Virus record (IMG/VR): IMGVR_UViG_3300037067_017823
Location: 1-64,000 of that record
DNA from: a virus
Taxonomy: Duplodnaviria > Caudoviricetes
Strand: one strand, 5' to 3'
Length of the DNA: 64,000 nucleotides
Part shown: positions 1 through 29,102 of the stretch, in pieces
Numbering within the stretch: the first letter of the stretch is position 1
How the letters are laid out: each line of letters starts with the position of its first letter
Made by a program: the position numbers and the translations under genes
Notes under the pieces: model-generated
Databases searched by the model: none
Told to the model about the DNA's origin: nothing
What the model saw: only the letters and a program-made list of their open reading frames with translations

Positions 1-174
1 AGTTGCAACATCTAGCTGTTCGTCATAGTAATCAAGATCAGTTGCGATATCGTCATAATAACTATTTGGAAACATATATTCCTTAAGTTGATCTTTTGTT
101 TTGATGCTTTTATCAATTGCAATAATAAATGACGATGAACTACTGTTTGATACGAACGATGTTCTTATTTTCAT
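1..174 (-). CDS. Hypothetical phage protein of the 'MKIRxxFVSNSSSSSF' family (runs off window start)
   Basis: Not in the ORF track. ATG at 174 reads MKIRTSFVSNSSSSSFIIAIDKSIKTKDQLKEYMF..., open to base 1, with a purine-rich RBS upstream. Confidence 0.8.
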   Translation of the reverse strand, partial: MKIRTSFVSNSSSSSFIIAIDKSIKTKDQLKEYMFPNSYYDDIATDLDYYDEQLDVAT

Positions 175-221
175 TTATACTCTCTCCTTTTTAGAAACTG
201 TTACACCAAAATTTTGTTTCT

Positions 222-608
222 TCATCTCTTTGATTTTTCTAGCTTTTCAATTTCAAAAGACATTTCTTCATATTCATCTTCCCACTCATGAGAAGGAGCT
301 TTTATGTGAATAAGTGTTTCATCATCAGAACAAAGAAGTGAAATACCTTTTAGTTTTTGAAGATCAGCGCTATTTCTTTCCGCATATTTTGGTACTTTTG
401 CCGACTCAATTTTCACAACTTTTGCGCAAAGAAGAAGTTCTTCAAGTCTCTTCTGATTTTCTACTGTATTCTTTTTCTCAATGCACCTATGACATTCATA
501 GTGATCATTATGAGGTTTTGTATTGGAGCTTTGCTCAATATTACATTCTGGACAGTTCCAAAGATAAACTATTTTTTGAACTTCACGTACTGTAACATCG
601 TATTTCAT
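222..608 (-). CDS. Hypothetical protein with Zn-ribbon (CPEC...CHRC)
   Basis: 128 aa ORF with two CxxC pairs, in a tightly packed minus-strand run. Confidence 0.65.
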   Translation of the reverse strand: MKYDVTVREVQKIVYLWNCPECNIEQSSNTKPHNDHYECHRCIEKKNTVENQKRLEELLLCAKVVKIESAKVPKYAERNSADLQKLKGISLLCSDDETLIHIKAPSHEWEDEYEEMSFEIEKLEKSKR

Positions 609-620
609 TATGCTACTCCC

Positions 621-827
621 TTAGCTCCATATATTTTGTTTATTGTATTCTATTGCGCGTTCTCTTGCTTCCTGTTGCTCTTCTAAATTCATGTCTTTCC
701 AGAGATTACACATAAACTCTTGTATTTTTTTGGCATGCCTTTTATCGTTCGTTTTTGTAAGTTCTTTTTCCATCATCTTATATAATTCGTAAACTGTAGT
801 CTTTCCCGGTATTATATTATTCATCAT
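621..827 (-). CDS. Hypothetical protein
   Basis: 68 aa; start overlaps the stop of the upstream gene. Confidence 0.6.
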   Translation of the reverse strand: MMNNIIPGKTTVYELYKMMEKELTKTNDKRHAKKIQEFMCNLWKDMNLEEQQEARERAIEYNKQNIWS

Positions 828-1015
828 TTTGTTATCTCAACAATTGCGCCAATAAAGAAAACAATAATAGACGCAGGGATTAACATAAAATAGAGTTCTT
901 CATTTTCCGTCAACCACATTAGAAAACCACAAATTATACATCCAATGAGAATACCAAAAAGAACGACTGTCATCACATATTTCTCTTTTCGGCAGTTACG
1001 AATACTGAAGGACAA
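824..1015 (-). CDS. Small membrane protein (two predicted TM helices)
   Basis: VVLFGILIGCIICGFLMWL and LYFMLIPASIIVFFIGAIV hydrophobic stretches; true start probably the internal MTVV. Confidence 0.65.
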   Translation of the reverse strand: MSFSIRNCRKEKYVMTVVLFGILIGCIICGFLMWLTENEELYFMLIPASIIVFFIGAIVEITK

Positions 1016-1692
1016 TTGAGAGTTTTACTTGGATCGCTGTTATCAAATGCATAATCATTTCTTATTTTGTTTTGAAGATTTTGTAGCCATTCACCACTCG
1101 GAACAATAAGACCAGACGGCATGATGTTTCCACCACTAGAAGAACTCTCTTTGAAATCGACATCCGTTAAAATAATGTGCTTTAAAGCATCAAAAGCTTC
1201 AATAGTTGAGAATTGTTGATTGTTATTGTTGAATTCAAGCAGTTTGTTCATACAATGATTGTGAAGACTATACCCGAGATGTTTATCGATTGTATATCCT
1301 TCTCCGACAAATTGTGGATCTTCTTTTGTGAATTCATACTCACATAAACTACATCTTTTTTCGGCATCTCTCTTTTTTCCACAATCAACGACACCCTTAC
1401 AGATCCATATAAGATCACTATCTAAATCTTTTTTCTCATATTCTCTCATTGCTATTCTGCATATTTCTCTTACTGCTTCATCATATTCTCTAAATTTTCC
1501 ATCAAGACACACTGAAGGATACCAATCATTTAAACGACAAGAAAGAAAACCATATATTTTTAGAGCTTCTCTTGGATGAAGACAGTCAGTCACACCGCTT
1601 ACAGATTCATGAAGAGTCGCAGCGCAGTCGACAAGACGAAATTGATATCGATTTATTCGCTCATAAAAAATGTCATATTCAACACTAGGCAT
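973..1692 (-). CDS. Cys/His-rich hypothetical protein with a treble-clef-like module
   Basis: CSLCEY...LHNHC module resembles those in the 958-aa protein; TAATG coupling with the upstream ORF. Confidence 0.65.
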   Translation of the reverse strand: MPSVEYDIFYERINRYQFRLVDCAATLHESVSGVTDCLHPREALKIYGFLSCRLNDWYPSVCLDGKFREYDEAVREICRIAMREYEKKDLDSDLIWICKGVVDCGKKRDAEKRCSLCEYEFTKEDPQFVGEGYTIDKHLGYSLHNHCMNKLLEFNNNNQQFSTIEAFDALKHIILTDVDFKESSSSGGNIMPSGLIVPSGEWLQNLQNKIRNDYAFDNSDPSKTLNCPSVFVTAEKRNM

Positions 1693-1868
1693 TATTTTTC
1701 ATCCCAGTATTCGTTTTCCATATCTGTTCCTACTTCCAACCACCTGCCGAACAGCTCATACCATTTAGGAAAAGACATTCCTTCTTTATAGAAGCTAAGA
1801 TTGTTCATATTAGAAACAAATGCATCAATTGTTGTAGTTATTTCTTTACGGAATTCTTCTACTGTCAT
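1692..1868 (-). CDS. Hypothetical protein (58 aa)
   Basis: Not in track. MTVEEFRKEITTTIDAFVSNMNNLSFYKEGMSFPKWYELFGRWLEVGTDMENEYWDEK fills the gap; its TAA overlaps the next ATG. Confidence 0.7.
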   Translation of the reverse strand: MTVEEFRKEITTTIDAFVSNMNNLSFYKEGMSFPKWYELFGRWLEVGTDMENEYWDEK

Positions 1869-2175
1869 TTAATTTCTTCTTTGTTTGTCTATCTTTGTGA
1901 AATGCCTCGAATGATCTATTCATCCACTTCGGAAGTTTGTCTGCTTCAATGGCAACTGCAGCAACAAAATCAGTTATAGCTTTTCTTTGACTTCGATTTG
2001 ATGCGATTACATCATGCTCTGCCATTCTGTTTGCTATTTCTAAAACCTGACCTATAGAGTTTAACGAAAGAAACAATGATTCAAAATCAAATAAAAACTC
2101 ATTCATTGTTTCGCGATTCTTCTTATTTAACCGAAGAGTCCGTGCCCATTGATCATAAAAAGCCAGAGATTTCAT
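1846..2175 (-). CDS. Hypothetical protein
   Basis: 109 aa; ATGA overlap with the upstream ORF and AGGAAGAGGG RBS. Confidence 0.65.
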   Translation of the reverse strand: MKSLAFYDQWARTLRLNKKNRETMNEFLFDFESLFLSLNSIGQVLEIANRMAEHDVIASNRSQRKAITDFVAAVAIEADKLPKWMNRSFEAFHKDRQTKKKLNDSRRIP

Positions 2176-2345
2176 ATTTCCCTCTTCCTTACAGAAATTG
2201 CTTGTCGAAAATATTCAAGTGCTTTTAATTTTTCACATGAACCATTAATATCGCCATGTAGCTCCTCTATTACAAGAATTTCTTCGGATTTTTTAAGTCC
2301 AAGCTCATCAACTAATATCAAAGCCTCGTCAAGAGAAGTAATCAT
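2172..2345 (-). CDS. Hypothetical protein (57 aa)
   Basis: Not in track. MITSLDEALILVDELGLKKSEEIL...; ATGA overlaps at both ends. Confidence 0.7.
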   Translation of the reverse strand: MITSLDEALILVDELGLKKSEEILVIEELHGDINGSCEKLKALEYFRQAISVRKREI

Positions 2346-5218
2346 GATATTTTCAAATCCCCTGTTCCGAGAAGTTTTATCTCGTTTGTTGGCTTCTTTT
2401 TTTCTGTTTTCCTATCCTTTATTACTATCTCTTTGTTATTTCCCTGTCTTTTTGTCCACTGTTCAAATTCATGCTCAAACTTATAATGTGCCGCAGCAAT
2501 AATAATTCGGCCCTTTTCATAATCATCTTTACCATCACTACCGGCACCAATAGCATTAACGTCGATATATTTTAAATGATTCTCATGAACTCTACAAGCA
2601 ATTTTAAATCCATAAGGTGTTTCGATAATTTTCTTTTCTTTATTACACGCCATATTACAAATTACACAAGAATCTGGATTGTCAACAGCAATACTATTAT
2701 AGAATGAAATAGGATCTTTTCTGTCTTTTGTTCGTTCGAAATAGTCTCCTGTATATTTTTCTTTTTTGATTACAGTGCGAGCACACTTTGTATCGAAATA
2801 TTCTTTCTTTGCCGCCATCAAGATTTCTCGTGCTGTTTTCTCCGTCGATGCCTCGTTTTTCTTTGAAAGTTCCATATCATCTCTAGCCCATTTTATATAT
2901 TCGCCACATTTTGTGTGGCAGTCTGTTTCAAGAAGAATTGATGAGTGGCTGAGGGCAAATCTCATTGGTACCGAATCTGGTAGATTATCATCACATATGG
3001 AACAATGTTTGTTGCCATCTGCGAAATTCATGGCATTTGAAAACACTTTATTTCCACTTGGATCCCTGTATTCCTCAAAACAGTCGTCAAAGTGCTTTTC
3101 TAACCATTTTCTTCTATCATCAAAAGTAATAGAAGCTTCATGATCCTCTGGTTTTGCAAAAATTAGTGACTTCTTTATTTCTTGAATCGCTTTTTCGTTT
3201 GTCCATGTCTTTGGACAACATTCATAGAGTGTCGCACAATAAACACAAAGAGGATATTTCTCGTTATAGATAACCACATCTTTTTCACTCGAACAAACAC
3301 AACATGAATATTCTTGTCTTAAAAAATATTCACGAGCATCATAACGTGGAGTTATCGGATGATTTATAGAATATCTTAATGATTCTTTTAGTTTTTTGTC
3401 TAGACACTCTTCATCAAAGCGCATATATTTTGCAGAGATAAATTGTTTGAGATTTCTACATTCGTCACAATATTGAAGATGCGTACTATGTGTTTCTCGA
3501 TCACAAATCTTGCATTTATTAAGTTTCGGAACTTCGATTCCACAATCTTGACACTTCTTAACAAACATTATCTCATTTTCAAGCATCTGCTCTCTTTGCT
3601 TTTCAAATTGATCATCAGCTTTTCCGAGAACAACTTTTAAGAGAGTATTTCGAATTCTAGCATCAATTTCAAAAGCAATATCTGTTGGCGACAATCCATC
3701 AATACGAGCTATACAGAATGCTTTCCGCGCTTGATAAATAGAAAAATCGTAATCAAAAGTCTTATAATACTTGATGATGTAGTTAACAAAAGAAAGAGAT
3801 TCAGTTAGGTCTTTTGAGACAGTTTCAATGTTTGATCCAATAGGATAATAGGAAATGAGATCGAGACACTCTTGACAAAATCTCTTACCATTTGCGTGCA
3901 AAAGAAAAGTCGGAGATTCGATCTTAAAGTTTTTTACATATTCACTTTGTTTTTCAAACGCAAGCTTTCTTCGCCCGCACTTTGCATCACACTCATCACT
4001 ATAAATCTTGTCCGCTGGTTCTGTTACAAACGAAACTAAATCTTTCATTTTTGTGAATCCATCCTTTGTGAGGATCTTATGATCTCCAGTAAAACACATT
4101 GCATCTTCATGTTTTATTTCTTTTAAAATACAAACCTTCATTTTCACAAAATGTTCCCGCCACTCATATTCAGTAACTACGTTACTCCTAGAAAGAATAA
4201 GCATTCTCCCTGCCCACTCAATAGAACCTTGAAGAGCATCAACAATGTGATTTTCTTCAGTTTTTAGCGGAAAATAACAAGCGAGAGAATGACACTCAGT
4301 ACAAAGATGCATTTTGTTCAAAGTATACTCGATGTAATTGAGACTGAGAGCGTTCTGTCTCTTTATATTGTTTCCACAAATGTCACACTTTGTTTCATCG
4401 TCAATATAGGCAATTGATAAAATGTTATCTGCTGCTCTTGCTTTTTTGAAAGAATCTACTACTTCTTCGTTACTTAATCTTGATGAATGAGCAGATATGC
4501 TGATATTCTCAACAGGGGCACACAAATATTCATTTACAAACAAATTTTTATTCTGTTTCTTTTGCCATTTTTCAATTGCTTCGTCCCGCACTCCTTTTGA
4601 AATAAAATCCCCATTCTTGTTGAGATGTGCCGGGTGCGGTGTAGAAACAAAGAAAGTATCCCCACCAGCGAACTTAAGAGATAGAATCAATTTTTCATCT
4701 TTGGGAATATTAAGTTCATCAAGAATTTGAAGATCACTTATTATCGTTCCATCTTGTCGAATAAGTTCCCAGTGTTCTTTTGGGCGAAGCGTATTTCGAG
4801 ACTCATAAAGAATGTGATGTTTTAATTCAAGAGCGGTTTCATTTCCGATAGCACTGAATGTATATTCTTCACCATTTACAAGAACGACAAGAGTTTTATC
4901 ACACATGAAAGCGACGAATTTTCTAAGATAGTCTATTGTTTTCTGCTGTGTTATGTTTTTCCAGCGCGTATCGTGTGCTTTGTTAATAATTGATAATGCT
5001 GTCTCTCTTGTTTTTGGCGCTTGTTCGAAGAAACTCTTGCCACAATGCGTGACACTATGAATAAAATGCACACAGTTTAAATGGACAAAACATTGATATC
5101 CTTCAAAGAAGTTGTAAAGTTCGTATGTAAGAGTAGGCGAAATATTCTCTTCTTCTGTAAATCTTTCGTCACATATCACACAATGCTCTTTATCACCTAT
5201 CAGATTTGTTTCAGTCAT
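2342..5218 (-). CDS. 958-aa mosaic protein: about 7 CxxC...(C/H)xxC Zn-finger repeats, internal ubiquitin-like domain, intein N-terminal motif
   Basis: Repeated CxxC modules; aa ~107-186 LVVLVNGEEY...EHWELIRQDG...LILSLKFAGG; aa 375-394 CFTGDHKILTKDGFTKMKDL. Confidence 0.75.
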   Translation of the reverse strand: MTETNLIGDKEHCVICDERFTEEENISPTLTYELYNFFEGYQCFVHLNCVHFIHSVTHCGKSFFEQAPKTRETALSIINKAHDTRWKNITQQKTIDYLRKFVAFMCDKTLVVLVNGEEYTFSAIGNETALELKHHILYESRNTLRPKEHWELIRQDGTIISDLQILDELNIPKDEKLILSLKFAGGDTFFVSTPHPAHLNKNGDFISKGVRDEAIEKWQKKQNKNLFVNEYLCAPVENISISAHSSRLSNEEVVDSFKKARAADNILSIAYIDDETKCDICGNNIKRQNALSLNYIEYTLNKMHLCTECHSLACYFPLKTEENHIVDALQGSIEWAGRMLILSRSNVVTEYEWREHFVKMKVCILKEIKHEDAMCFTGDHKILTKDGFTKMKDLVSFVTEPADKIYSDECDAKCGRRKLAFEKQSEYVKNFKIESPTFLLHANGKRFCQECLDLISYYPIGSNIETVSKDLTESLSFVNYIIKYYKTFDYDFSIYQARKAFCIARIDGLSPTDIAFEIDARIRNTLLKVVLGKADDQFEKQREQMLENEIMFVKKCQDCGIEVPKLNKCKICDRETHSTHLQYCDECRNLKQFISAKYMRFDEECLDKKLKESLRYSINHPITPRYDAREYFLRQEYSCCVCSSEKDVVIYNEKYPLCVYCATLYECCPKTWTNEKAIQEIKKSLIFAKPEDHEASITFDDRRKWLEKHFDDCFEEYRDPSGNKVFSNAMNFADGNKHCSICDDNLPDSVPMRFALSHSSILLETDCHTKCGEYIKWARDDMELSKKNEASTEKTAREILMAAKKEYFDTKCARTVIKKEKYTGDYFERTKDRKDPISFYNSIAVDNPDSCVICNMACNKEKKIIETPYGFKIACRVHENHLKYIDVNAIGAGSDGKDDYEKGRIIIAAAHYKFEHEFEQWTKRQGNNKEIVIKDRKTEKKKPTNEIKLLGTGDLKIS

Positions 5219-5228
5219 TTCCCACCAC

Positions 5229-5453
5229 TTATTTTACTTTCTCTGGGTTTTTACAAACCTCATCGATAATATCAAGAAGACTTTGCCCATAAAACTCTTT
5301 CCACATCCGTAGCTGATCGCTCTTGTCAAGGTTTCTTAAGAAAGCATTTTCTGAAAAATCACGTTTTGCCTCATCAATAAAGTGAACAACGCGAGAAGTT
5401 ATGATATTTCCCTCTTCATCGAAGATCCACGAAATCTTTTCGTTATTATCCAT
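5229..5453 (-). CDS. Hypothetical protein
   Basis: Probable start MDNNEK at 5453 after AAGGAGGG RBS (track starts at GTG 5495); TATAAT at 5496-5501. Confidence 0.65.
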   Translation of the reverse strand: MDNNEKISWIFDEEGNIITSRVVHFIDEAKRDFSENAFLRNLDKSDQLRMWKEFYGQSLLDIIDEVCKNPEKVK

Positions 5454-5522
5454 TTTGCTTCCCTCCTTGTCTTCGTTTGAAGAATGATATTGCACATTAT
5501 ATTAGTAGAAAAATAAAGAAAA

Positions 5523-6455
5523 TCAAAAGATCATCATTACTATTTTTTCTAAATTTTTTCCGAAATGTGAAGAATTTATTATGGTTTCTACTTCATACTT
5601 CTTGTACTTAACCAATGTATCGTCTGTAACAAAAACCATTTTTGGGCATTTATATTTTTCTATACAAACATCAATCCATTCGTCACAACTTAGATCTTTA
5701 TCTAAACACTTTCCGTCTGAGTCAAAATTCCACTGTTCTGTTAATCGATATGGTGAACACGTGAACAAAGCTGGTCTGTTTAATTCCATATCTTTAAAAA
5801 TATCTTGAACTTTGACTTTAGCATTCAAATTGAGTTCGTCTATAATTTTTTGACTTTCTTGAATATGCTTAGCATTTAAGTCTTGACCAATATAATATTT
5901 TTCACACGCACACGTAGCAAGTAGCCTCCCACTGGATCCACTAAAAGGATCAAAAATTTCTTTTTCTTCTGAAAGATATTTATCGATGATATATTTACCG
6001 AGCTTAGGCTTAAAATAAGAAACTCTATTTGCTAGATACATTGAATTCATTCCTATCACATAAATAAACATAGGAACTTCACCTCTCCAGAGCATTTTAT
6101 TTTTTTCTTCAGATTCTTTAAAATAATCGCTTCTCATATACCGGTTTTTCAAAAACTTTTTAAACAATTCTGGATCGGTCTGAAGTTTTTTCCACATAGT
6201 TACTGGAGAGTCGCTGTCTTTTTTGTTCGCTTCAACAAGTGACTTATGATAATAAGGAATGATGTTACTACTAGTTCTAGAATTGGGTTTTTGTGTTGTA
6301 TATGTTTTTAGGTTCTTAAATTCATTTTTACACTGTTCGAGTGTTATTGGTTTCTCTTTTTGAGAAGGGAGTTCTTTTTCAGCCTTGACTCTTTCCCATT
6401 CTCTTTCCCAATACTGTTCTACTAACTTGTCTGCTTCTTCTTTTGTACAGTTCAT
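5523..6455 (-). CDS. Putative amino (N4-C/N6-A) DNA methyltransferase
   Basis: SAM-binding-like motif IFDPFSGSSGRLLA, YIGQDLN, and catalytic-like LFTCSPY (SPPY variant). Confidence 0.7.
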   Translation of the reverse strand: MNCTKEEADKLVEQYWEREWERVKAEKELPSQKEKPITLEQCKNEFKNLKTYTTQKPNSRTSSNIIPYYHKSLVEANKKDSDSPVTMWKKLQTDPELFKKFLKNRYMRSDYFKESEEKNKMLWRGEVPMFIYVIGMNSMYLANRVSYFKPKLGKYIIDKYLSEEKEIFDPFSGSSGRLLATCACEKYYIGQDLNAKHIQESQKIIDELNLNAKVKVQDIFKDMELNRPALFTCSPYRLTEQWNFDSDGKCLDKDLSCDEWIDVCIEKYKCPKMVFVTDDTLVKYKKYEVETIINSSHFGKNLEKIVMMIF

Positions 6456-6465
6456 TGTTTGTCTC

Positions 6466-7485
6466 TTAATAGTGAGTCAGGTTGTATTCTCTTTGCTCTT
6501 GAGTTAAATGTGGTCCAAAGAAAACATAATCAGCTGAATCGTGTCCTTTCCATAATTTTTCCCATAATCTTGATTCTAGTTCTCGAGTTAGTTCAACTAA
6601 TCCAATTTTGTTCAAAATCAATCCGTGCATAGCACACTTTCTGCATGTATAACAATTGTGTGTAGGTAACTTTACTCCATATTTTTCTGAATTAATTTTG
6701 TGCCAATAATTGACGAACTTACCAGGCGAAACACAAGAATAATAATGTTCGAGCGCTTTATATTTATTCAACAAATTGAGTCTTTCTGCTTTATCGCCTT
6801 CACATTTTATTTCTTTGAATTGAAGATTTTTAAAAACTGAGTAACATCCGCTTAAAAATGTTTCAAGAGTCTGTTTAGCATCAGTAAGATTCACTCCAAG
6901 CATAACGTTTTTAATATCTAAAGATAAATCATCTCCAAGACTGATTATATTATAGCCTTTTTCTAAACAAAAATCAATCATCAAAGAAATAATGAATTGA
7001 TTCTTTATTGGATTTTCGTGCCAAAATTGTTTATATTGCTCTGTCTTTTTTATCACCTTTGATATTTTTACAAACTCTATAGAAAAATTAAATTTCTCAG
7101 AAAACTCTTTAGCTACTTTGTCAGCTTGATAATTTTCATAAGTATTTATTCCAGAACAATAAAACAAGATCACATTGTATCCTTCTTCTTTAAGTTTAAG
7201 AGCTTGATATGTTGAATCGAGACCTCCAGAATAACCTAATACAACAACTGTGTTATTTTGCTGTTGTAACTCTTTTCTTTCTATAAATGAAGTATTAAAT
7301 GCTATGTAGTTTTGCGAATGGAAATTATATATTGTGTCAAGAAAATTTTTAAAAACTTGATCGAAAACTATTTCTTTGTCGAAATGTTCTTTATTGAAGT
7401 TAGAATAAAGTTTTCCAATCTCTTTAGAAAAATAAAGCGGAAAATCACATTTTACTTTTCCAAAATCAAAATTAGTCGAAATCAT
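6466..7485 (-). CDS. QueC-like PP-loop ATPase with N-terminal extension
   Basis: VVVLGYSGGLDS PP-loop; YYSC...NCYTCRKC Zn site. Start at ATG 7485 after GGAGA (track starts upstream at 7545). Confidence 0.7.
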   Translation of the reverse strand: MISTNFDFGKVKCDFPLYFSKEIGKLYSNFNKEHFDKEIVFDQVFKNFLDTIYNFHSQNYIAFNTSFIERKELQQQNNTVVVLGYSGGLDSTYQALKLKEEGYNVILFYCSGINTYENYQADKVAKEFSEKFNFSIEFVKISKVIKKTEQYKQFWHENPIKNQFIISLMIDFCLEKGYNIISLGDDLSLDIKNVMLGVNLTDAKQTLETFLSGCYSVFKNLQFKEIKCEGDKAERLNLLNKYKALEHYYSCVSPGKFVNYWHKINSEKYGVKLPTHNCYTCRKCAMHGLILNKIGLVELTRELESRLWEKLWKGHDSADYVFFGPHLTQEQREYNLTHY

Positions 7486-8554
7486 TGCAGCTTTCTCCAA
7501 AATATTTTTTAGGATTGAGAGGATACATAGTATCTTTATTTGCAAGTAGTATTGACTTTATTCTATTTTTTATTGTCTTTTTATTCAAATCTAAACCAAT
7601 TGATGTGAGTTCAGAATAATCTGCAAGAATATAACTATATCCATTATCATTGCACCAATTGATAGCAGCTTCTCTTTTGAGAGACGTGTTTTCGTCGAAA
7701 TAACCTTTTGTTTCTATAATTTCTCTCGATAGTGGTAAAATAAAATCTGGATTATATAAAGCCCAATTACTGTTTTCATTTACATAACCTATAGATATTG
7801 TACTTCTTTCATATTGAATATTCATAGCATAACACCATCTCATAAATAAAAATTCCCAAGAACTATCACAGTATTCCCAGTTATTAGAAAACGGATTTTT
7901 TATTTTGCATTTAAAAGTATATTGTAAGTTTGTACCATTTTTACTCTGTTGCTCAGATGCTATAATCGAAATTTTTCTTCTCCACTTTTCATATTTTTCT
8001 GGATTTGTTTCTTTAAGCTTTTCTACAATCTTAGATGGATCATTCGGAAGGTTTATTCCAGATTCCCATCTTTCTTTCAGACGAACAGATCTATTTTGTC
8101 TTTCGCTGTCTGAATCTGATGTTGTCCAAAAATTTTTTGAAGCTCTAATACGCTTAATTGTGTTTTCTTTCGTGTGTATTTGATCTAGTTTTTTTGTAAC
8201 TCCTTCGCGGACTTTTATCTTTAATGGACTTTCACCCACATAAAGTTCTTTAAGTGTATTTCTTATTCTTGTTTTTGTCTCTTGTGTATGTGGCTTTCTT
8301 GGAAAATGATTTTGACAATAGTCTCTAAACCATGGTCCACAAGATAAAGGTTTGAATGAGACACGTCTCCCACAGCCACATTTACAGACAGGATACTTAT
8401 TGTCATAATATAAAGCTACAATATATTGTTTAAAGTCCATATTATAGTTTTTTCTAATATGTTTAATCATTAATCGGTGTGTTTCAAACAAAGAATCATC
8501 TAGTTTGCATGTTCGCGATTCGAGTTCGGAAATAGTAAATGAATTAGAGTCCAT
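7472..8554 (-). mobile_element. Free-standing homing endonuclease-like gene (CxCGCG + NUMOD-like + PD-(D/E)xK/TnsA-N-like nuclease)
   Basis: PVCKCGCG, RKPHTQETKTRI, DSSWE...YNPDFIL...IIETKG. Likely ATG at 8554 (MDSNSF); 3' end overlaps the QueC-like start. Confidence 0.75.
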
Positions 8555-8658
8555 ATTATAAATATAACGGCAATCAAATAATAACACAAAGTTTTTTAAA
8601 AGAAATGAGTTTTATTTTTATGGCTTATGACGAGATACGGCAAACGCGTCTGACCCGA

Positions 8659-9504
8659 TTATCTCGTCATTATTGCTTCCAAAATTTTTGTTCGAATAAA
8701 TTCTTTATCATTCTTTTTGTTTTCCCAAATAACAACAACTTCATATCCTTTTTCTATAGCAAGTTCCTCATATTTTTTATCAATTGCTCGATTTCGATTT
8801 TGCCATGGTTTAAGTTGTTCTTTTGAATAGAGCAAAAGATCACCATGCCAATATGAACCATAACATTCAATGATTATTTTCTTATCTTTAATTCCAATAT
8901 CATACTTATGATTGATTCCCTCAACAAGATATTCAAAGATGATATTTTCAGTTCCTACAATTTCAGATACGATATCTATGACAATTTTTTCAAAGTTATT
9001 TGGACCTTTTTGTCGTCTCCAATGGGCTTGCCCTTCGAGCATTCTTTTCTTCACCTCAGAATTAGCTAGAGCTTCAGTTACAGAAGCTGACATCTTATCA
9101 TGATACTCTTGAGTTGAATAAAAACTTTTATTAGCATTTACATAAGATTTAGCATCTCTAGCTAAAGCGCCTGCTTTTGCATTTCTTATTCTAATTTCTT
9201 TAGGAACTTTTTTCATTGCTTCTTTGGTTGCTAAAGAAATCTTATCTCTCACTTCTTGTGGGAATTTTTTCCCTTTATGATGATGACCTTTTATTGTTTT
9301 ACAAAACTTATTTTTAAGAAAAGATACTTTTTCTCCGCAGCCACAGTCACAAAGAGGCCAAATTCCATTTAGTTCTTTTAATTTTTGTTCGCAAAGCCAG
9401 TTTTGATATTTTATTTTGTGAACAAGCGAAAAATGGCATGAAAGAGAATTTAAATCATAATATTCTTTTGTTGAGTTTTTACAATCTTCATGTGGACATT
9501 TCAT
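8659..9504 (-). mobile_element. Free-standing homing endonuclease-like gene (Zn finger + NUMOD3 + Vsr/DUF559-like nuclease)
   Basis: CPHEDC...HFSLVH, PLCDCGCG, KGKKFPQEVRDKIS, PNNFE...YDIGIKDKKIIIECYGSYWHG...GYEVVVIWE. Confidence 0.8.
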
Positions 9505-9507
9505 AAA

Positions 9508-9516
9508 TTAATTATA
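9508..9516 (-). promoter_or_regulatory. TATAATTAA box (putative -10/late promoter); also at 11327, 13550, 48353, 53655, with ATAATTAA at 14781, 27113, 34353
   Basis: Recurs at gene boundaries directly upstream of genes; I saw no properly spaced TTGACA. Confidence 0.5.
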
Positions 9517-9534
9517 TACAGGTGTCAAATCTTT

Positions 9535-9576
9535 GAAAAATATAGGGAAATGCCCTAAAAAGAACAGAGCATTTTT
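9535..9576 (-). terminator. Possible intrinsic terminator downstream of the major capsid gene
   Basis: Minus strand TAGGG-CATTT-CCCTA followed by TATTTTT; a longer competing stem AAATGCTCT/AGGGCATTT overlaps it. Confidence 0.4.
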
Positions 9577-9603
9577 AATTGGAATGAGAAGAATGAGGAA
9601 GAA

Positions 9604-11232
9604 TTATAGGTCGAGGACTACGATGCGGGCGTAATAATCGGGGCGTACCATATGTTTGCCGTATCTCGTCATGAGTCCTTTACGGGGCGTAAAGTCCTCT
9701 GGAGCGAAGATTGTCGGAGTGATTATTAGTGGCACATACGGGGCATAAACATATCCGCACTCGAGGAAGCTATTTCCCTTGTAACCAAGTAGTATCTGAT
9801 TCTTTAGCATGTAGGGATCTTTGTAAACAGTGAATCGGTTATTGAGTGTGCCAACTTTTTCTGTTCCAACAGAGTATTTCGCTTCACCAGCATCACCAGT
9901 GTAATTCGGTTTGAATTCAGCAGTTGATTCTAGGATTGTGCAAACATCTGGAGAAGCAACCAGCCACGTGGCATTTCCTCTCTTAGTTCTGCTGAAGATT
10001 TCGTTAGAAGCATCGACGATCACCTCAAAGAGGCCGCGATACCATTCAATCGGAGAAGTAGTCGTGAACGAGCCGCCGATTGTAGCGCCGGTTCGTGGAT
10101 TGACATACTTGCCCTTTTGACGTGACCAGAAGCGAGTTATTGCAGCTCTGCTCATTAGGTCACTGATGATTTCACGATCGATTTCTAGAGCAATCTGTTC
10201 TGATAGAATCTGAGTGAGCTCTGCTTCAGCGTCGACGTTGAAGTATGAGTTGAGATCCTGAGCTAGTTCAGGAGTCCAACGAGCTCTGAGTTTCCGTGAC
10301 TGAGCTACGACAGTCGCAGATTCGAGTTTTATGTCGATTTCTGGAATTGTCGGAGTGGGGGAAGCGCCGAGATCTGATTCAAAGGGTTGATAGACGCCTA
10401 CGCCACCAGTTGTGCATGGAGCCGAGATGCAAGAAGCTGTTGAGGCGCAAACGAAGCAAATTGATGCAGATGGACCGAAAGCAGCATCTGTGTAAACATA
10501 GAGAGCAGATCCATTTAGAATCTTGTTGTGTCTACGGTATTGAACTGGAGCTGCAGCCGCCCATGGAGAAGTACCTGAAGAAACAACAACGCTCTTTATG
10601 GCCGATTGGTCGAGCGTGCCGTTGCAAGCAGTTGAAGTGATGCTCGTAAGAGCAAATACGTTTTCGAATACTGTTGAGCCACTGAGATCTGGATCGAATG
10701 ATACAGATGCCCAGGGAGCAGAACCCGAAGTAGCCGGAGCTGAAGCGTATGTTCCACTTACGAGAACCTGAGAATACGCTGAATGGAGATCATATAGACC
10801 ACCAGTTCGAGCAGCGCCTGAAGCGTGGAGGCATGAACCAACGGGATCACCATATACCGAGCCACCTTCAGTGTAACCACATTGGCCAGCGCCATAAGTA
10901 AAGTCTAGATAGAAGATGAGACCTGACGGTTGATTCATCGCTTGTACGGAAACTAGTTCCTGAGCGAGTAAGTTACCGAAGGCTCGTCTTACGATTGGGA
11001 ACGCGTTTGTTTGGAAACCAGCGATATCAGAAGTTTGTGAAGATTCTTTGATTAGTTCTTTCAGTTGGTTCTCTAGAAGAACAGCCATATTCTCTTTCTG
11101 GTTGTCGTCTTTGAGACCATTGAGCAATGGTGTATTTTTTGACCATCTCTCAACAAGCATCGCTCGTTCGGCACCTTGGTTGTAACCGCGAGCGCTCTTA
11201 ATCAGTTCATTGATATTCATTGTTCCGCTCAT
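9604..11232 (-). CDS. gp23: Major capsid protein, T4 gp23 family
   Basis: FPIVRRAFGNLLAQELVSVQAMNQPSGLIFYLD; SRKLRARWTPELAQDL; EIDREII; GYVYAPYVPL; KGLMTRYG. Confidence 0.96.
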   Translation of the reverse strand: MSGTMNINELIKSARGYNQGAERAMLVERWSKNTPLLNGLKDDNQKENMAVLLENQLKELIKESSQTSDIAGFQTNAFPIVRRAFGNLLAQELVSVQAMNQPSGLIFYLDFTYGAGQCGYTEGGSVYGDPVGSCLHASGAARTGGLYDLHSAYSQVLVSGTYASAPATSGSAPWASVSFDPDLSGSTVFENVFALTSITSTACNGTLDQSAIKSVVVSSGTSPWAAAAPVQYRRHNKILNGSALYVYTDAAFGPSASICFVCASTASCISAPCTTGGVGVYQPFESDLGASPTPTIPEIDIKLESATVVAQSRKLRARWTPELAQDLNSYFNVDAEAELTQILSEQIALEIDREIISDLMSRAAITRFWSRQKGKYVNPRTGATIGGSFTTTSPIEWYRGLFEVIVDASNEIFSRTKRGNATWLVASPDVCTILESTAEFKPNYTGDAGEAKYSVGTEKVGTLNNRFTVYKDPYMLKNQILLGYKGNSFLECGYVYAPYVPLIITPTIFAPEDFTPRKGLMTRYGKHMVRPDYYARIVVLDL

Positions 11233-11280
11233 GATGTTTTTAGATTCTCCTATTTCTTTCTAACTATAATAAAGTACATC

Positions 11281-11328
11281 AACTTTTCAATCGCATCTAT
11301 TTTCGATAGATAGAAGTGCGATCAAGTT
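11281..11328 (-). promoter_or_regulatory. 5' leader hairpin of the capsid mRNA, just downstream of a TATAATTAA box (11327-11335)
   Basis: Minus strand AACTT-gATCGCA...TCTAT-cgaaa-ATAGA-TGCGAT...AAGTT imperfect stem. Confidence 0.4.
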
Positions 11329-11385
11329 AATTATACTCGAATTTTGATTTTTACTTTATTTTTTGAGAAATAAGTTGGGAGAGGA

Positions 11386-11784
11386 TTAACTATACTTCCG
11401 AGCAATAGCCAAGAGAACTTGAAGATCTTTTTTTGAAATCGTTTGAGAATCATTCCAATCGAACCCTGGGTCTTTTAAATCCTTTTCAATTTGTTCGGCA
11501 GCTTTTTCATAGATATCGCCAACTTGTTCAACCATATCAAGAGCTTCAAGAATACCAGTTTTCGCAACAAGACAGACGTCCCAAGCTCCAGTAGTATTAA
11601 ATTCGTTTCCTCTCTTTTTTACTTGAGTTCTTAATTTTCTAATGACAAACTCTTGTATATCAGCCATAAAATCAGCGGTCTCGTCAGACTCTTGCCAATG
11701 TTTTATACCCACCATCCCTTCAGAAAGATTTACTTCTTCTTTAATTAGTTTTCTGAGCTCACTAAGTTTTATTCTTTTTATCAT
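11386..11784 (-). CDS. Putative head-internal (cargo) protein
   Basis: Leader MIKRIKLSELRKLIKEEVNLSEG shared with the neighbouring gene. Confidence 0.6.
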   Translation of the reverse strand: MIKRIKLSELRKLIKEEVNLSEGMVGIKHWQESDETADFMADIQEFVIRKLRTQVKKRGNEFNTTGAWDVCLVAKTGILEALDMVEQVGDIYEKAAEQIEKDLKDPGFDWNDSQTISKKDLQVLLAIARKYS

Positions 11785-11818
11785 AGTTTATTCTCCTCGA
11801 TCAGTGCTCCTATATAAA

Positions 11819-12286
11819 TTACAACTGAAGTGTTTTTATAAGTTTTGGAGTCATATCCTTTAATTCTTGCTTATATTCAGCTTTAAGTTCTTTCATAAAA
11901 CGATCTGGATCTTTTTTATATTCTCGAGATAAGTCCCTATTTTTAACCATATTATCTTTAGCTCTCTGAATATAATCTTCCCAAGAACTAACATCGTTTT
12001 CTTGTTGTACCCATTTGATATAATCATCGACAGTAGCACCACTATATAAAGCAACTATAGTATATCCGCCTTGTAGTTCAAAGACGTGTAAAGTTTTTGA
12101 AACAGCTAAAAGTTTTGGAAGATCAAAAACAAAATCCATAACAGCATAATGTCCAGATGAACCTTCATCAGGCGTATGTTCAATTCCAACATTTTTAATT
12201 TTTTGAGTATAACCACTTCCTTCATTAAGATTTACTTCTTCTCGAATCAATCTCTTCAGTTCACTAAGTTTTATTCTTGTTCTCAT
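11819..12286 (-). CDS. Putative head-internal (cargo) protein
   Basis: Leader MRTRIKLSELKRLIREEVNLNEG, then an unrelated body. Confidence 0.6.
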   Translation of the reverse strand: MRTRIKLSELKRLIREEVNLNEGSGYTQKIKNVGIEHTPDEGSSGHYAVMDFVFDLPKLLAVSKTLHVFELQGGYTIVALYSGATVDDYIKWVQQENDVSSWEDYIQRAKDNMVKNRDLSREYKKDPDRFMKELKAEYKQELKDMTPKLIKTLQL

Positions 12287-27119: not shown

Positions 27120-29102
27120 TTATTCTGAAGTGATTTTATCGTCATTTTCAATAGAAACATCGAGCTCTTCTTTGTCTTCAAATTTCACTTTATTTATTCC
27201 ACTAGTGATGATTTCTGTTAGAAGTCTATTTTTCCCACCGAGATTTAGTGAAACCATTTCAGATTCGATGCCGTGAGCAAGGCGAGAAAATGTCTTTTTT
27301 CCATATGGATCATGCATTGTATCATCGTCATCATGTGTAACATCATTGCTTAAATCAACAAGACCACTTTGATTTCTGTTCTTCGACTGCCTTCTTTTTC
27401 TTTCATAATCTGTTTCTTTTTTCTTTGCCCTTGCTTTATCAAATGCATCATTTGCAGCAGTCACGAGTTCACCTTCACCGCCACCAACTTCAGCTTCTGC
27501 TCCACCTTCTTCAGCACCACCAAGCTCTGCTTCTTCTCCACCGAGTTCCTCACCACCGAGTTCTTCTCCTTCAACAGGAGGTTCAGCACCTCCACCACCC
27601 ATCATTCCTCCACCACCGCCTCCACCCATCATCTCACCCCCACCTTCAGCAGAACCTTGTTCACCAGCCTTTTGTTCAACGAATGCAATTTGCCCATCAA
27701 CATAAGCATCTTTCATTCTTCCAATATTTATTTGCTTAATGTCATCATCTTTGAGATTGAAGAAGCGTTTTAGAACATAGGAACGATCGAATAACTTTTC
27801 ATTATTGAGACCAGAGACAACCTGAACTCTTCTTTCGAGAAGGTCAAGTTTCTGCATTGAAGCGAGGTTCGATGGATTCGTTAGCTTCAAATCGAAACCA
27901 AGAAGATCTTTTCCTGAATATCCTTGAGAAATCAAGTGGACCATAGCAATCTTTGTGAGTTCAGAAACTATAGCTCTCTGTATTCTTTCTATTGTTCTTG
28001 AAAAACGAATATCGAGAGATGCGAGAGTTGATTTATTTGCAAGATCTTCTTCATACGTCAAATATGCTCTCGGTATTCCAAGAGCAGCAATCAGTTTCTT
28101 GAGAAGATATTCTACGTCTTCAATATCATTGACATGTTGACCACCTGGAAGTGATTCAATTCTATTTGTTTTGTCACCTCTTTGAGGAATAAAGTAGTCT
28201 TCAGAAACATCGAGTGGGTCGAATCTTTGATCAACTTTACCATAAAGCTTGTTCACAACGTTTGCATTTCTAAGTTTCGCCTTAATTTTTTGCATGAACT
28301 CTTCAACGTTTTGTGGTTGAACACCTGAAACGTCGATATAAAAAACTCTTCTTTCTGGAGCTCGAAGAACACGATAAACAAGCATTGCGTCTTCCATGAG
28401 AACGAGTTTCCGCCAGAAAGATCGAGCTCCCTCAATGAACGATGTTCCATATGGAAGAAATTTATCTTGACCGAGAAGACGGAAGTGAGCAACCTGCCAG
28501 TTTTCTAGTAAGCGGTTTGTTGTTAACCACTTGAATCTTATTTCTTGAGGATCTTCCTTTGAACCTTCGAGTCGTTCAAAGTCATTAACTGGAATTGTTA
28601 TGAGACGTTCAATGCCATTTTTTGGATGAACGTCGATATACTGAGTGAAGTCGCCATATTTACAGAGTGTTCTCGCCCACCCCCAAATATAAAAATCAAT
28701 GTCAAGAATATCGAAGAATAACGATTCAAGAATTTGCTTTATTGACTCATTCTCAGATTCTACGAATAAAACTTTTCCATCTTCAGAACGCGAAGTAGCT
28801 TCATCAGCTACGAGGTTAAGAGCGCTGGCTATTTCTGGTACGGACTCCATAAGGCAAAACTCAGTGTACCTTGCAAGCCTATTCGTATCATAGTTTGCAT
28901 TTGACCCATCACCAAACCATTGTGACGCTCCAAGATTGCTTCTTTGAAGTCCAAAATCTCGCATGAAAGAAGTGACTTCTTCTTTCGTATCGAGAGACGG
29001 CTTTATTCTTGACGAAACGAGCGAACCGCGCTTCATCAAACGCCAAAGATTACGAAACGTACTTACGTTTCCGAACTTCGGTCCATCGTTTTTATTATCC
29101 AT
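27120..29102 (-). CDS. gp20: Portal protein, T4 gp20 family, with Gly/Glu-rich tail
   Basis: WRKLVLMEDAMLVYRVLRAPERRVFYIDV; EDYFIPQRG; IESLPGG; ALGIPRAYL. Confidence 0.95.
   Translation of the reverse strand: MDNKNDGPKFGNVSTFRNLWRLMKRGSLVSSRIKPSLDTKEEVTSFMRDFGLQRSNLGASQWFGDGSNANYDTNRLARYTEFCLMESVPEIASALNLVADEATSRSEDGKVLFVESENESIKQILESLFFDILDIDFYIWGWARTLCKYGDFTQYIDVHPKNGIERLITIPVNDFERLEGSKEDPQEIRFKWLTTNRLLENWQVAHFRLLGQDKFLPYGTSFIEGARSFWRKLVLMEDAMLVYRVLRAPERRVFYIDVSGVQPQNVEEFMQKIKAKLRNANVVNKLYGKVDQRFDPLDVSEDYFIPQRGDKTNRIESLPGGQHVNDIEDVEYLLKKLIAALGIPRAYLTYEEDLANKSTLASLDIRFSRTIERIQRAIVSELTKIAMVHLISQGYSGKDLLGFDLKLTNPSNLASMQKLDLLERRVQVVSGLNNEKLFDRSYVLKRFFNLKDDDIKQINIGRMKDAYVDGQIAFVEQKAGEQGSAEGGGEMMGGGGGGGMMGGGGAEPPVEGEELGGEELGGEEAELGGAEEGGAEAEVGGGEGELVTAANDAFDKARAKKKETDYERKRRQSKNRNQSGLVDLSNDVTHDDDDTMHDPYGKKTFSRLAHGIESEMVSLNLGGKNRLLTEIITSGINKVKFEDKEELDVSIENDDKITSE

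What the first reader, a model, noticed from the sequence alone, without database searches (positions are those of the whole stretch)
4661..4900. Bacterial ubiquitin-like (DUF2604/Bil-type) domain ending in GG embedded in a phage protein
Seen: aa ~107-186 of the 958-aa ORF read LVVLVNGEEYTF...LKHHILYES...PKEHWELIRQDGTIISDLQILDELNI...LILSLKFAGG and continue in frame. Established: this pattern (V-NG, P-E-WEL, DG, LxLSLKxGxG) is what I recall for DUF2604-like prokaryotic Ubls, and bacterial Ubl/E1/E2/JAB operons such as Bil conjugate Ubl to phage virion proteins. Inference: the phage may carry a Ubl decoy that sequesters or jams host E1/E2/JAB enzymes, or uses a host peptidase to cut after GG and release the Zn-finger part. 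No E1/E2 gene is visible in the window.
Basis: partly seen in the sequence, partly recalled or inferred. Interest (0 to 1): 0.78.

Follow-up and report, generated by a model that had tools for sequence, protein, structure and literature searches.

The report
BilA-type ubiquitin-like domain inside phage protein
A large, modular zinc-finger protein of an uncultured T4-like phage carries, as an internal domain, a genuine copy of BilA, the ubiquitin-like tag that bacteria use in the Bil anti-phage system; it may interfere with that defence, but this is untested.

Summary
The ORF at 2342-5218 (minus strand, 958 aa) has at aa 107-186 (nt 4661-4900) a domain that passes Pfam DUF2604 above its curated cut-off. 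It folds as a beta-grasp, and its best structural matches in the PDB are the two Ensifer aridi BilA entries, ahead of ubiquitin and ISG15. I show here that DUF2604 is the Ubl of Type II BilABCD operons, from rhizobial plasmid operons and a profile hit to BilA at E 1e-23.

The domain is kept in all four full-length homologues, all from T4-like metagenomic phages, and in a sister protein.

The functional reading is only partly supported:
- GG is present in 3 of 5 homologues; the others have EG, and the sister protein has GC.
- The tail is one residue shorter than in BilA.
- About 770 residues follow in frame.
- No E1, E2 or JAB gene is in the 89-kb record, which is about 44% complete.

My best guess (about 0.4) is a BilA mimic that engages host Bil enzymes late in infection. 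A plain interaction domain is nearly as likely.

The scan has already noted orphan BilA-like genes in at least 8 other phage genomes. The new point here is the internal, fused position. No paper in the held library describes a phage BilA.

The parts
2342..5218 (-). 958-aa ORF (P0001): a modular protein rich in Cys/His fingers that carries the Ubl. ATG at 5218, preceded by GGTGG.
   Evidence: four full-length homologues P0002-P0005; identical in independent runs
4901..5218 (-). N-terminal part, aa 1-106: a CxxC...HxxC finger (C13, C16 and H46 invariant) plus a conserved helical stretch that leads into the Ubl
   Evidence: alignment A1; AF2 helices 71-85 and 91-105 at low to middling confidence
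4661..4900 (-). BilA-type (DUF2604) ubiquitin-like beta-grasp domain, aa 107-186, ending LSLKFAGG
4661..4666 (-). Gly185-Gly186. G186 is invariant in the five homologues; G185 is Glu in P0003 and P0004.
4433..4660 (-). Conserved region after GG, aa 187-262 (FFVSTPHPAHLNKNGDF ... NEY.C.PV ... LSNEE..S..KAR). aa 184-206 are modelled with pLDDT below 50 (flexible or unmodelled linker).
   Evidence: its first residues resemble the next-repeat start of polyubiquitin
4097..4396 (-). Extra CxxC...CxxC plus helix module, about aa 275-374, present only in this homologue (an insertion relative to P0002-P0005)
3998..4096 (-). Hint/intein block-A-like motif, aa 375-407 (CFTGDHKILTKDGF...). The first Cys is not conserved among homologues.
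   Evidence: TIGR01445 E 0.0038, 18.2 bits, below the 24.5-bit cut-off; alignment; a 313-aa relative, P0029, begins at this motif
3629..4006 (-). Zn-ribbon plus helical-bundle module, aa 405-530. Confidently modelled, with no match to a solved fold. Its copy number varies between homologues.
   Evidence: pLDDT 91.8, pTM 0.83; Foldseek best E 0.85; VIA wide best Z 5.3
2345..2743 (-). Conserved C-terminal region, aa 826-958 (DYFERTKxRKDPISFY, NPDxCxIC finger, helix, tail TNEIKLLGTGDL). This is the best-conserved part of the family.
1846..2175 (-). Downstream 109-aa gene. Weakly similar to a gene in the same position in the homologue loci L005/L006.
973..1692 (-). Downstream 239-aa gene. Its first 94 aa are 67% identical to the second gene after the homologue in L005/L006, and it contains a similar CxxC...HxxC finger.

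Best explanation
Shown: the ORF is a real, conserved gene of T4-like phages, and its aa 107-186 are a captured Type II BilA-type ubiquitin-like beta-grasp domain. BilA is the tag that BilABCD systems attach to proteins through an E1 (BilD), an E2 (BilB/CEHH) and a JAB peptidase (BilC). In the phage the domain sits between an N-terminal finger/helical part and about 770 residues of variable Zn-ribbon modules. The gene lies in the late/structural gene region.

Inferred, and the mechanism I commit to: the domain works as a BilA mimic. While virion proteins are being made, it binds the host's Bil enzymes (E1/E2 and/or the BilC peptidase) in place of the host's own BilA. This lowers tagging of phage structural proteins. 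In the homologues that keep LSLKFAGG, BilC could also clip after G186. That would release an 'N-domain plus Ubl' product of the kind known for natural BilA proteins, which would then compete as a decoy substrate. In the homologues with EG, the domain would act only as a non-activatable binder.
For: - Identity of the domain: Pfam DUF2604 is above its cut-off.
- DUF2604 is BilA: a DUF2604 profile hits PDB Ubl(BilA) 8tyx/8tyz at E 1.2e-23. In rhizobial plasmids the DUF2604 gene heads the operon DUF2604 - 'putative metal-binding protein' - Mov34/JAB - 'E2 ligase fold family C protein'. This is the Ubl-CEHH/E2-DUB-E1 order that Chambers et al. describe for Type II BilABCD.
- Fold: the AF2 model of aa 108-181 has BilA as its best two PDB matches, TM 0.87 and 0.84.
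- Conservation: the domain is present in all five homologues (80, 64 and 43% identity to the window's domain for P0002, P0004 and P0005). These five plus P0006 form one well-supported clade, 99/95.
- Cleavability is plausible: BilC cuts a BilA-GFP fusion after the conserved Gly, so a long C-terminal extension is tolerated. aa 184-206 are modelled as low-confidence.
- Natural BilA/BubA proteins often have an N-terminal domain before a single beta-grasp. P0023-P0025 are such DUF2604 proteins, some with Cys-rich N-domains, and they end in GG.
- Gene position: the gene sits among structural genes in this phage (downstream of the gp23 major capsid gene) and in the L005 phage (gp19-like tail tube and T4 baseplate genes nearby). 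Bil acts on virion proteins.
Against: - There is no experimental or co-folding evidence of binding to any Bil enzyme.
- GG is replaced by EG in P0003 and P0004 and by GC in P0006, and P0003 has an 8-residue insertion in the tail.
- The tail from LSLK to the last Gly is 4 residues, against 5 in BilA and other DUF2604 proteins. This may prevent activation by the E1.
- The single-sequence match to BilA is weak (E 0.066); identity to stand-alone DUF2604 proteins is 31-42%.
- Type II Bil operons are reported mostly from Rhizobiaceae. This phage has 30-42% G+C, comes from landfill and groundwater, and its capsid protein is closest (38%) to Flavobacterium phages. The host and its Bil status are unknown.
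- P0029, a 313-aa relative, lacks the Ubl altogether.
Confidence: 0.4

Rival explanations
1. A static ubiquitin-like domain. The beta-grasp is a stable internal module that is never cleaved or activated and has no dealings with Bil enzymes. It would serve as a protein-protein interaction, folding or assembly module of a Zn-finger scaffold protein, as UBL domains do in many eukaryotic multidomain proteins.
For: The di-Gly is not conserved across the clade (FAGG, LFEG, an inserted ...SEG, VAGC). The tail is one residue shorter than in BilA. A strongly conserved sequence follows directly in frame. There are no Bil enzymes in the record.
Against: The body of the domain keeps the DUF2604 signature positions (VNG, NTxRP, WEL, DG, LxLSLK), and BilA is its nearest structure. 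Three of the five homologues keep LSLKFAGG. The residues after GG are modelled as a low-confidence linker, not packed onto the domain.
Confidence: 0.3
2. A ubiquitin-fusion-type precursor. The protein is a polyprotein cut after GG186 by a peptidase, either of the host or encoded in the missing ~56% of the phage genome. Cutting would release the C-terminal Zn-finger protein and the N-terminal finger-Ubl as two separate functional products, as with eukaryotic ubiquitin-ribosomal-protein fusions. The Ubl would act mainly as a removable leader or chaperone.
For: The junction LSLKFAGG|DTFFVST aligns with polyubiquitin junctions LRLRGG|MQIFVKT. BilC tolerates large C-terminal fusions. A linker is predicted after GG. 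P0029 shows that the C-terminal core can exist as a separate 313-aa protein.
Against: No peptidase gene was found in the record. P0003 and P0004 lack GG. P0029 starts at the Hint-like motif (aa ~380), not after GG. The Ubl is not at the N-terminus; 106 residues precede it.
Confidence: 0.15
3. An evolutionary relic. The Ubl is a passenger fragment in a fast-shuffling mosaic gene, in a genome rich in homing endonucleases and inteins, and has no function of its own.
For: Module number varies strongly between homologues (637-1132 aa). An orphan Hint-like motif lies in the same protein. Many endonuclease genes are nearby.
Against: The Ubl is present and in frame in all five homologues. It is among the better-conserved parts (43-80% identity), and the family-defining positions are intact.
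Confidence: 0.08

Closest known systems
Type II BilA, the Ubl of CEHH/6C (Type II BilABCD) operons; Pfam PF10790 DUF2604; Ensifer aridi BilA, PDB 8TYX/8TYY/8TYZ/8TZ0 (Chambers et al., bioRxiv 10.1101/2023.09.26.559546)
   Same: The sequence family matches (Pfam above cut-off). The fold is the same single beta-grasp, and BilA is the best PDB match. The signature VNG / NTxRP.E.WEL / DG / LxLSLK is kept, followed by a Gly-containing tail.
   Different: The domain is internal to a 958-aa phage protein. About 770 residues follow the Gly, against at most 9 in natural BilA. The tail is one residue shorter, and GG is not conserved across the phage clade. No bilB, bilC or bilD lies nearby or anywhere in the 89-kb record.
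BilA/BubA 'Ubl1' proteins with diverse N-terminal domains (Gong et al., bioRxiv 10.1101/2024.11.21.623966)
   Same: An N-terminal non-Ubl domain is followed by one beta-grasp. The metagenomic DUF2604 proteins P0023-P0025 have Cys-rich or other N-domains of this kind.
   Different: Those proteins end at or just after the Gly-Gly. No sequence similarity was found between their N-domains and the phage N-terminal part.
Eukaryotic ubiquitin precursors (polyubiquitin; ubiquitin fused to ribosomal proteins eL40 and the Zn-ribbon protein eS31)
   Same: A Ubl ending in GG continues in frame into another protein. The junction aligns with polyubiquitin junctions.
   Different: The match to ubiquitin itself is weak per repeat (about 6 bits each). 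The Ubl is preceded by 106 residues. No processing enzyme is known here, and GG is not universal in the family.
Polyvalent proteins of phages and conjugative elements (Iyer, Burroughs, Anand, de Souza and Aravind 2017; cited from my own knowledge, not checked here)
   Same: A large, modular phage protein with variable domain content between relatives, Zn-ribbon modules and a Hint-like piece.
   Different: No recognised enzymatic or anti-restriction domain was found. There is no evidence that it is packaged or injected.

Membership tests
DUF2604 / Type II BilA ubiquitin-like proteins | Sequence match to Pfam PF10790 above the gathering threshold | tested here: met
   30.5 bits for the whole protein and 36.3 bits for the excised domain, against a cut-off of 25; 35.5 bits in the six-frame genome search
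DUF2604 / Type II BilA ubiquitin-like proteins | Ubiquitin-like beta-grasp fold close to solved BilA | tested here: met
   AF2 model of aa 108-181, pLDDT 79-90. Top Foldseek PDB matches are 8tyx_A (TM 0.87, rmsd 2.8 over 80 columns) and 8tyz_B (TM 0.84).
DUF2604 / Type II BilA ubiquitin-like proteins | A conserved reactive Gly at or within about 9 residues of the C-terminus, five residues after the LxLK strand | tested here: not met
   772 residues follow G186. The Gly lies four residues after LSLK, not five. The penultimate Gly is Glu in P0003 and P0004.
DUF2604 / Type II BilA ubiquitin-like proteins | Encoded in an operon with E2 (CEHH/BilB), JAB peptidase (BilC) and E1 (BilD) | tested here: not met
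   No ThiF, Prok-JAB, JAB, Prok-E2_C or Metal_CEHH match at E<=1 in the 89-kb record. The record is only ~44% complete, so a distant copy is not excluded. The neighbouring genes are unrelated.
DUF2604 / Type II BilA ubiquitin-like proteins | Activated by E1 and conjugated to lysines; processed by BilC | not testable with these tools
   Needs biochemistry or co-folding with Bil enzymes
Ubiquitin family (PF00240) | Match above the Pfam threshold | tested here: not met
   15 bits, E 0.021, against a cut-off of 25.4. Summed matches to polyubiquitin are significant, but each repeat scores only about 6 bits.
Inteins / Hint domains (for aa 375-407) | N-terminal splicing block with a nucleophilic Cys/Ser, a TxxH block and a C-terminal HN block | tested here: not met
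   Only block A is seen: TIGR01445 18.2 bits, below the 24.5 cut-off. The first residue is C/H/A/A/C in the five homologues. There is no Pfam Hint or intein hit at E<=10.

The most novel reading that the evidence does not exclude
Phages have captured the host's own ubiquitin-like tag (BilA) and built it into a large late protein as a counter-defence. This would be a non-transferable or decoy Ubl that occupies the Bil E1/E2/peptidase, so that virion proteins escape tagging. It would be the first anti-Bil mechanism, and a prokaryotic parallel to viral interference with ISG15 and ubiquitin.
Probability: 0.3. Interest if true: 0.8.

Novelty: new variant of a known kind. Interest (0 to 1): 0.6.

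Why it matters
Bil and related bacterial ubiquitination systems were characterised only in 2023-2024, and the searches I could run found no paper describing a phage countermeasure or a phage-encoded BilA. A BilA-type domain conserved inside a phage protein gives a concrete, clonable candidate for testing how phages deal with Ubl-based immunity. It could also show whether bacterial JAB peptidases process long Ubl fusions in nature, as eukaryotic deubiquitinases do. If instead it is a plain interaction domain, it still shows that ubiquitin-like domains are used as internal modules of multidomain proteins outside eukaryotes.

Tried and rejected
- **Literature.** 'DUF2604' gives 0 papers. Searches for phage-encoded Ubl or anti-Bil found nothing relevant.
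- **Cultured-phage collection.** No tblastn match for the whole protein, for the Ubl even at E<=1, or for the stand-alone DUF2604 protein P0007. No megablast match for nt 1-12000.
- **IMG/VR scans.** A scan with the family alignment and one with a DUF2604 alignment returned no confirmed relative. These scans depend on short back-translated patterns, so this is weak evidence.
- **Genome contigs.** The single counted scan gave one locus, L002, which proved a false lead: the 2Fe-2S ferredoxin subunit of a xanthine-dehydrogenase-type operon.
- **A link between the Ubl and the upstream PP-loop ATPase and methylase-like genes.** I considered this by analogy with Ubl/PP-loop sulfur relays and rejected it. 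Those genes are not neighbours of the homologue in L005/L006.
- **A second Ubl after GG.** There is no second DUF2604 stretch, and no fold is modelled for aa 187-275.
- **Fold of the aa 405-530 module.** No convincing PDB match. The ESM Atlas gave no usable hit.
- **T4 late-promoter motif TATAAATA.** Not enriched: 7 found against 6.4 expected.
- **RNA.** No RNA holder was listed for the gene.
Full report
**What is there**

The window is the first 64 kb of an 89,144-base IMG/VR virus record, estimated about 44% complete. Almost all genes lie on the minus strand. G+C in 2-kb windows is mostly 30-36%, with a single peak of 42%.

It is a distant T4-like phage:
- a Gp23-type major capsid protein at 9604-11232 (PF07068, E 8.5e-77);
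- a portal protein at 27120-29102;
- a large terminase with an inserted endonuclease-like segment at 30296-33232.

The capsid protein is at best 38-39% identical to known phages, namely Flavobacterium phages and uncultured jumbo phages. The host is unknown.

The frame then continues.

**Is it a DUF2604/Bil-type Ubl?**

Yes.
- **Profile.** Pfam DUF2604 scores 30.5 bits on the whole protein and 36.3 bits on the excised domain, against a cut-off of 25. The ubiquitin family is only a weak second.
- **Sequence search.** A phmmer search of 1.84 billion representatives with the 92-aa piece finds the four phage homologues. It then finds stand-alone 84-118-aa proteins ending LSLKVGAGG, with or without a short cap, tandem two-Ubl proteins, and eukaryotic polyubiquitins.
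- **Structure.** AlphaFold2 on the full protein gives a poor overall model (mean pLDDT 57), but aa 108-181 form a clear beta-grasp with pLDDT 79-90. Foldseek against the PDB puts the two BilA entries first (8tyx_A TM 0.87, 8tyz_B TM 0.84), ahead of ISG15 and many ubiquitin chains.

**Is DUF2604 really BilA?**

I tested this rather than assuming it.
- A profile of DUF2604 proteins hits PDB 'Ubl(BilA)' 8tyx/8tyz at E 1.2e-23. It hits the C-terminal domain of three-domain BilA proteins at about 1e-14.
- In twelve rhizobial plasmids the DUF2604 gene is annotated. In the two plasmids I opened it heads the operon DUF2604 - 'putative metal-binding protein' - Mov34/JAB - 'E2 ligase fold family C protein'.
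- This is the Ubl-CEHH/E2-DUB-E1 order that Chambers et al. renamed Type II BilABCD, found mostly in Rhizobiaceae.
- Their work shows that BilC cuts after the conserved Gly, even in a BilA-GFP fusion. It also shows that natural BilA proteins carry at most nine residues after that Gly.

**The rest of the protein and its relatives**

Only four full-length homologues exist among 5.8 billion clustered proteins: P0002-P0005, 637-1132 aa.

All of them keep these parts:
- the N-terminal finger;
- a conserved helical stretch;
- the Ubl;
- a conserved region after the Gly;
- a Hint-block-A-like motif whose first residue is not a conserved nucleophile;
- at least one Zn-ribbon module;
- a strongly conserved C-terminal region ending TNEIKLLGTGDL.

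The number of Zn-ribbon/helical modules differs between homologues.

One such module (aa 405-530) is modelled with pLDDT 92 but matches no solved fold.

A 313-aa relative, P0029, starts at the Hint-like motif and lacks the Ubl.

Two metagenomic loci with the P0005-type gene are also T4-like (gp19-like tail tube and T4 baseplate genes). They share the two small downstream genes with the window, but not the upstream PP-loop ATPase and methylase-like genes.

The gene is found letter for letter in landfill and groundwater runs of separate studies. A ~92% relative with in-frame indels occurs in wastewater.

**The tail**

Aligned with 16 other DUF2604 domains, the family tail is LSLK-(V/A)G(A/V/I)(G/A)G. 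The rhizobial BilA proteins end ...AGAAG and ...AGVAG-A.

| Protein | Sequence after LSLK |
|---|---|
| P0001, P0002, P0005 (phage clade) | FAGG, one residue shorter than the family tail |
| P0004 | LFEG |
| P0003 | an 8-residue insertion, then SEG |
| P0006 (sister; N-terminal Ubl fused to a different Cys/His-rich part) | VAGC |

In a maximum-likelihood tree the five phage domains plus P0006 form one clade (support 99/95), separate from the rhizobial BilA proteins. This points to a single capture, followed by relaxed constraint on the di-Gly.

The residues after GG (DTFFVST) align with the start of the next repeat in polyubiquitin. However, no second Ubl is detectable.

**Bil enzymes**

ThiF, Prok-JAB, JAB, Prok-E2_C and Metal_CEHH are all absent at E<=1 from the 89-kb record. 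More than half of the genome is missing, so this is not proof of absence.

**Interpretation**

*Shown:*
- a bona fide BilA-type beta-grasp;
- conserved as an internal domain of a modular phage protein;
- located in the structural gene region.

*Inferred:* its role. I rank the readings as follows.

1. **BilA mimic that engages host Bil enzymes late in infection (about 0.4).** Supporting points: the body of the domain keeps the family signature; BilA is its nearest structure; Bil acts on virion proteins; BilC tolerates long fusions; and 'N-domain plus Ubl' is a natural BilA architecture.
2. **Plain internal interaction domain (about 0.3).** The loss of GG in part of the clade, the shorter tail and the unknown host keep this reading almost as likely.
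3. **Ubiquitin-fusion-type precursor (about 0.15).**
4. **Relic (about 0.08).**

**Novelty**

I found no paper on a phage-encoded BilA or an anti-Bil factor. Earlier notes of this scan report orphan or C-terminal BilA-like genes in at least eight other phage genomes. I did not re-test those. They mean that phage-borne BilA as such is not unique to this window.

What is particular here is the internal position, with hundreds of residues after the Gly, in a repeat-module Zn-finger protein. I class it as a new variant of a known kind.

Noticed in passing
window 3629-4006 (-), aa 405-530 of P0001: A Zn-ribbon plus helical-bundle module is modelled with very high confidence (pLDDT 91.8) but has no convincing match in the PDB (Foldseek best E 0.85; VIA wide best Z 5.3). 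Its copy number varies between the five homologues.
   Followed up: partly
window 3998-4096 (-), aa 375-407: An orphan Hint/intein block-A-like motif (TIGR01445 E 0.0038, below cut-off). The first residue is C/H/A/A/C in the homologues, so it is not a conserved nucleophile. The 313-aa relative P0029 begins exactly at this motif and lacks everything upstream, including the Ubl.
   Followed up: partly
window 4640-4666 (-): The junction LSLKFAGG|DTFFVST aligns with polyubiquitin repeat junctions (LRLRGG|MQIFVKT) and resembles the junction of tandem DUF2604 proteins (P0019). It may be a vestige of a second Ubl, but none is detectable by profile or model.
   Followed up: partly
P0006 (metagenomic protein, 287 aa): The closest outgroup of the phage Ubl clade is another fusion. 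The Ubl is at the N-terminus, the tail reads VAGC instead of GG, and a different Cys/His-rich and helical C-terminal part follows. Its context could not be read.
   Followed up: no
window 30296-33232 (-): The large terminase is 978 aa. Its terminase matches are split (aa 14-179 and 639-940) around a ~460-aa insert with endonuclease-like matches, an intein-like arrangement.
   Followed up: no
window 5523-7545 (-): Adjacent methylase-like (310 aa) and PP-loop/QueC-like ATPase (359 aa) genes lie upstream of the Ubl protein. They are not neighbours of the homologous gene in loci L005/L006, so they are probably unrelated to it.
   Followed up: partly
window 973-1692 (-): The 239-aa downstream protein has a CxxC...HxxC finger of the same style as the N-terminal finger of the Ubl protein. 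Its first 94 aa are conserved (67%) in the same relative position in L005/L006.
   Followed up: partly
window 7472-9504 (-): Two HNH/endonuclease-like genes sit between the major capsid gene and the PP-loop gene (PHROG endonuclease matches). This adds to the many homing-endonuclease-type genes of this genome.
   Followed up: no
L002 (Atribacterota MAG contig): The only genome contigs 'relative' of a stand-alone DUF2604 protein was a false lead. The match lies in the 2Fe-2S ferredoxin subunit of a xanthine-dehydrogenase-type operon.
   Followed up: yes
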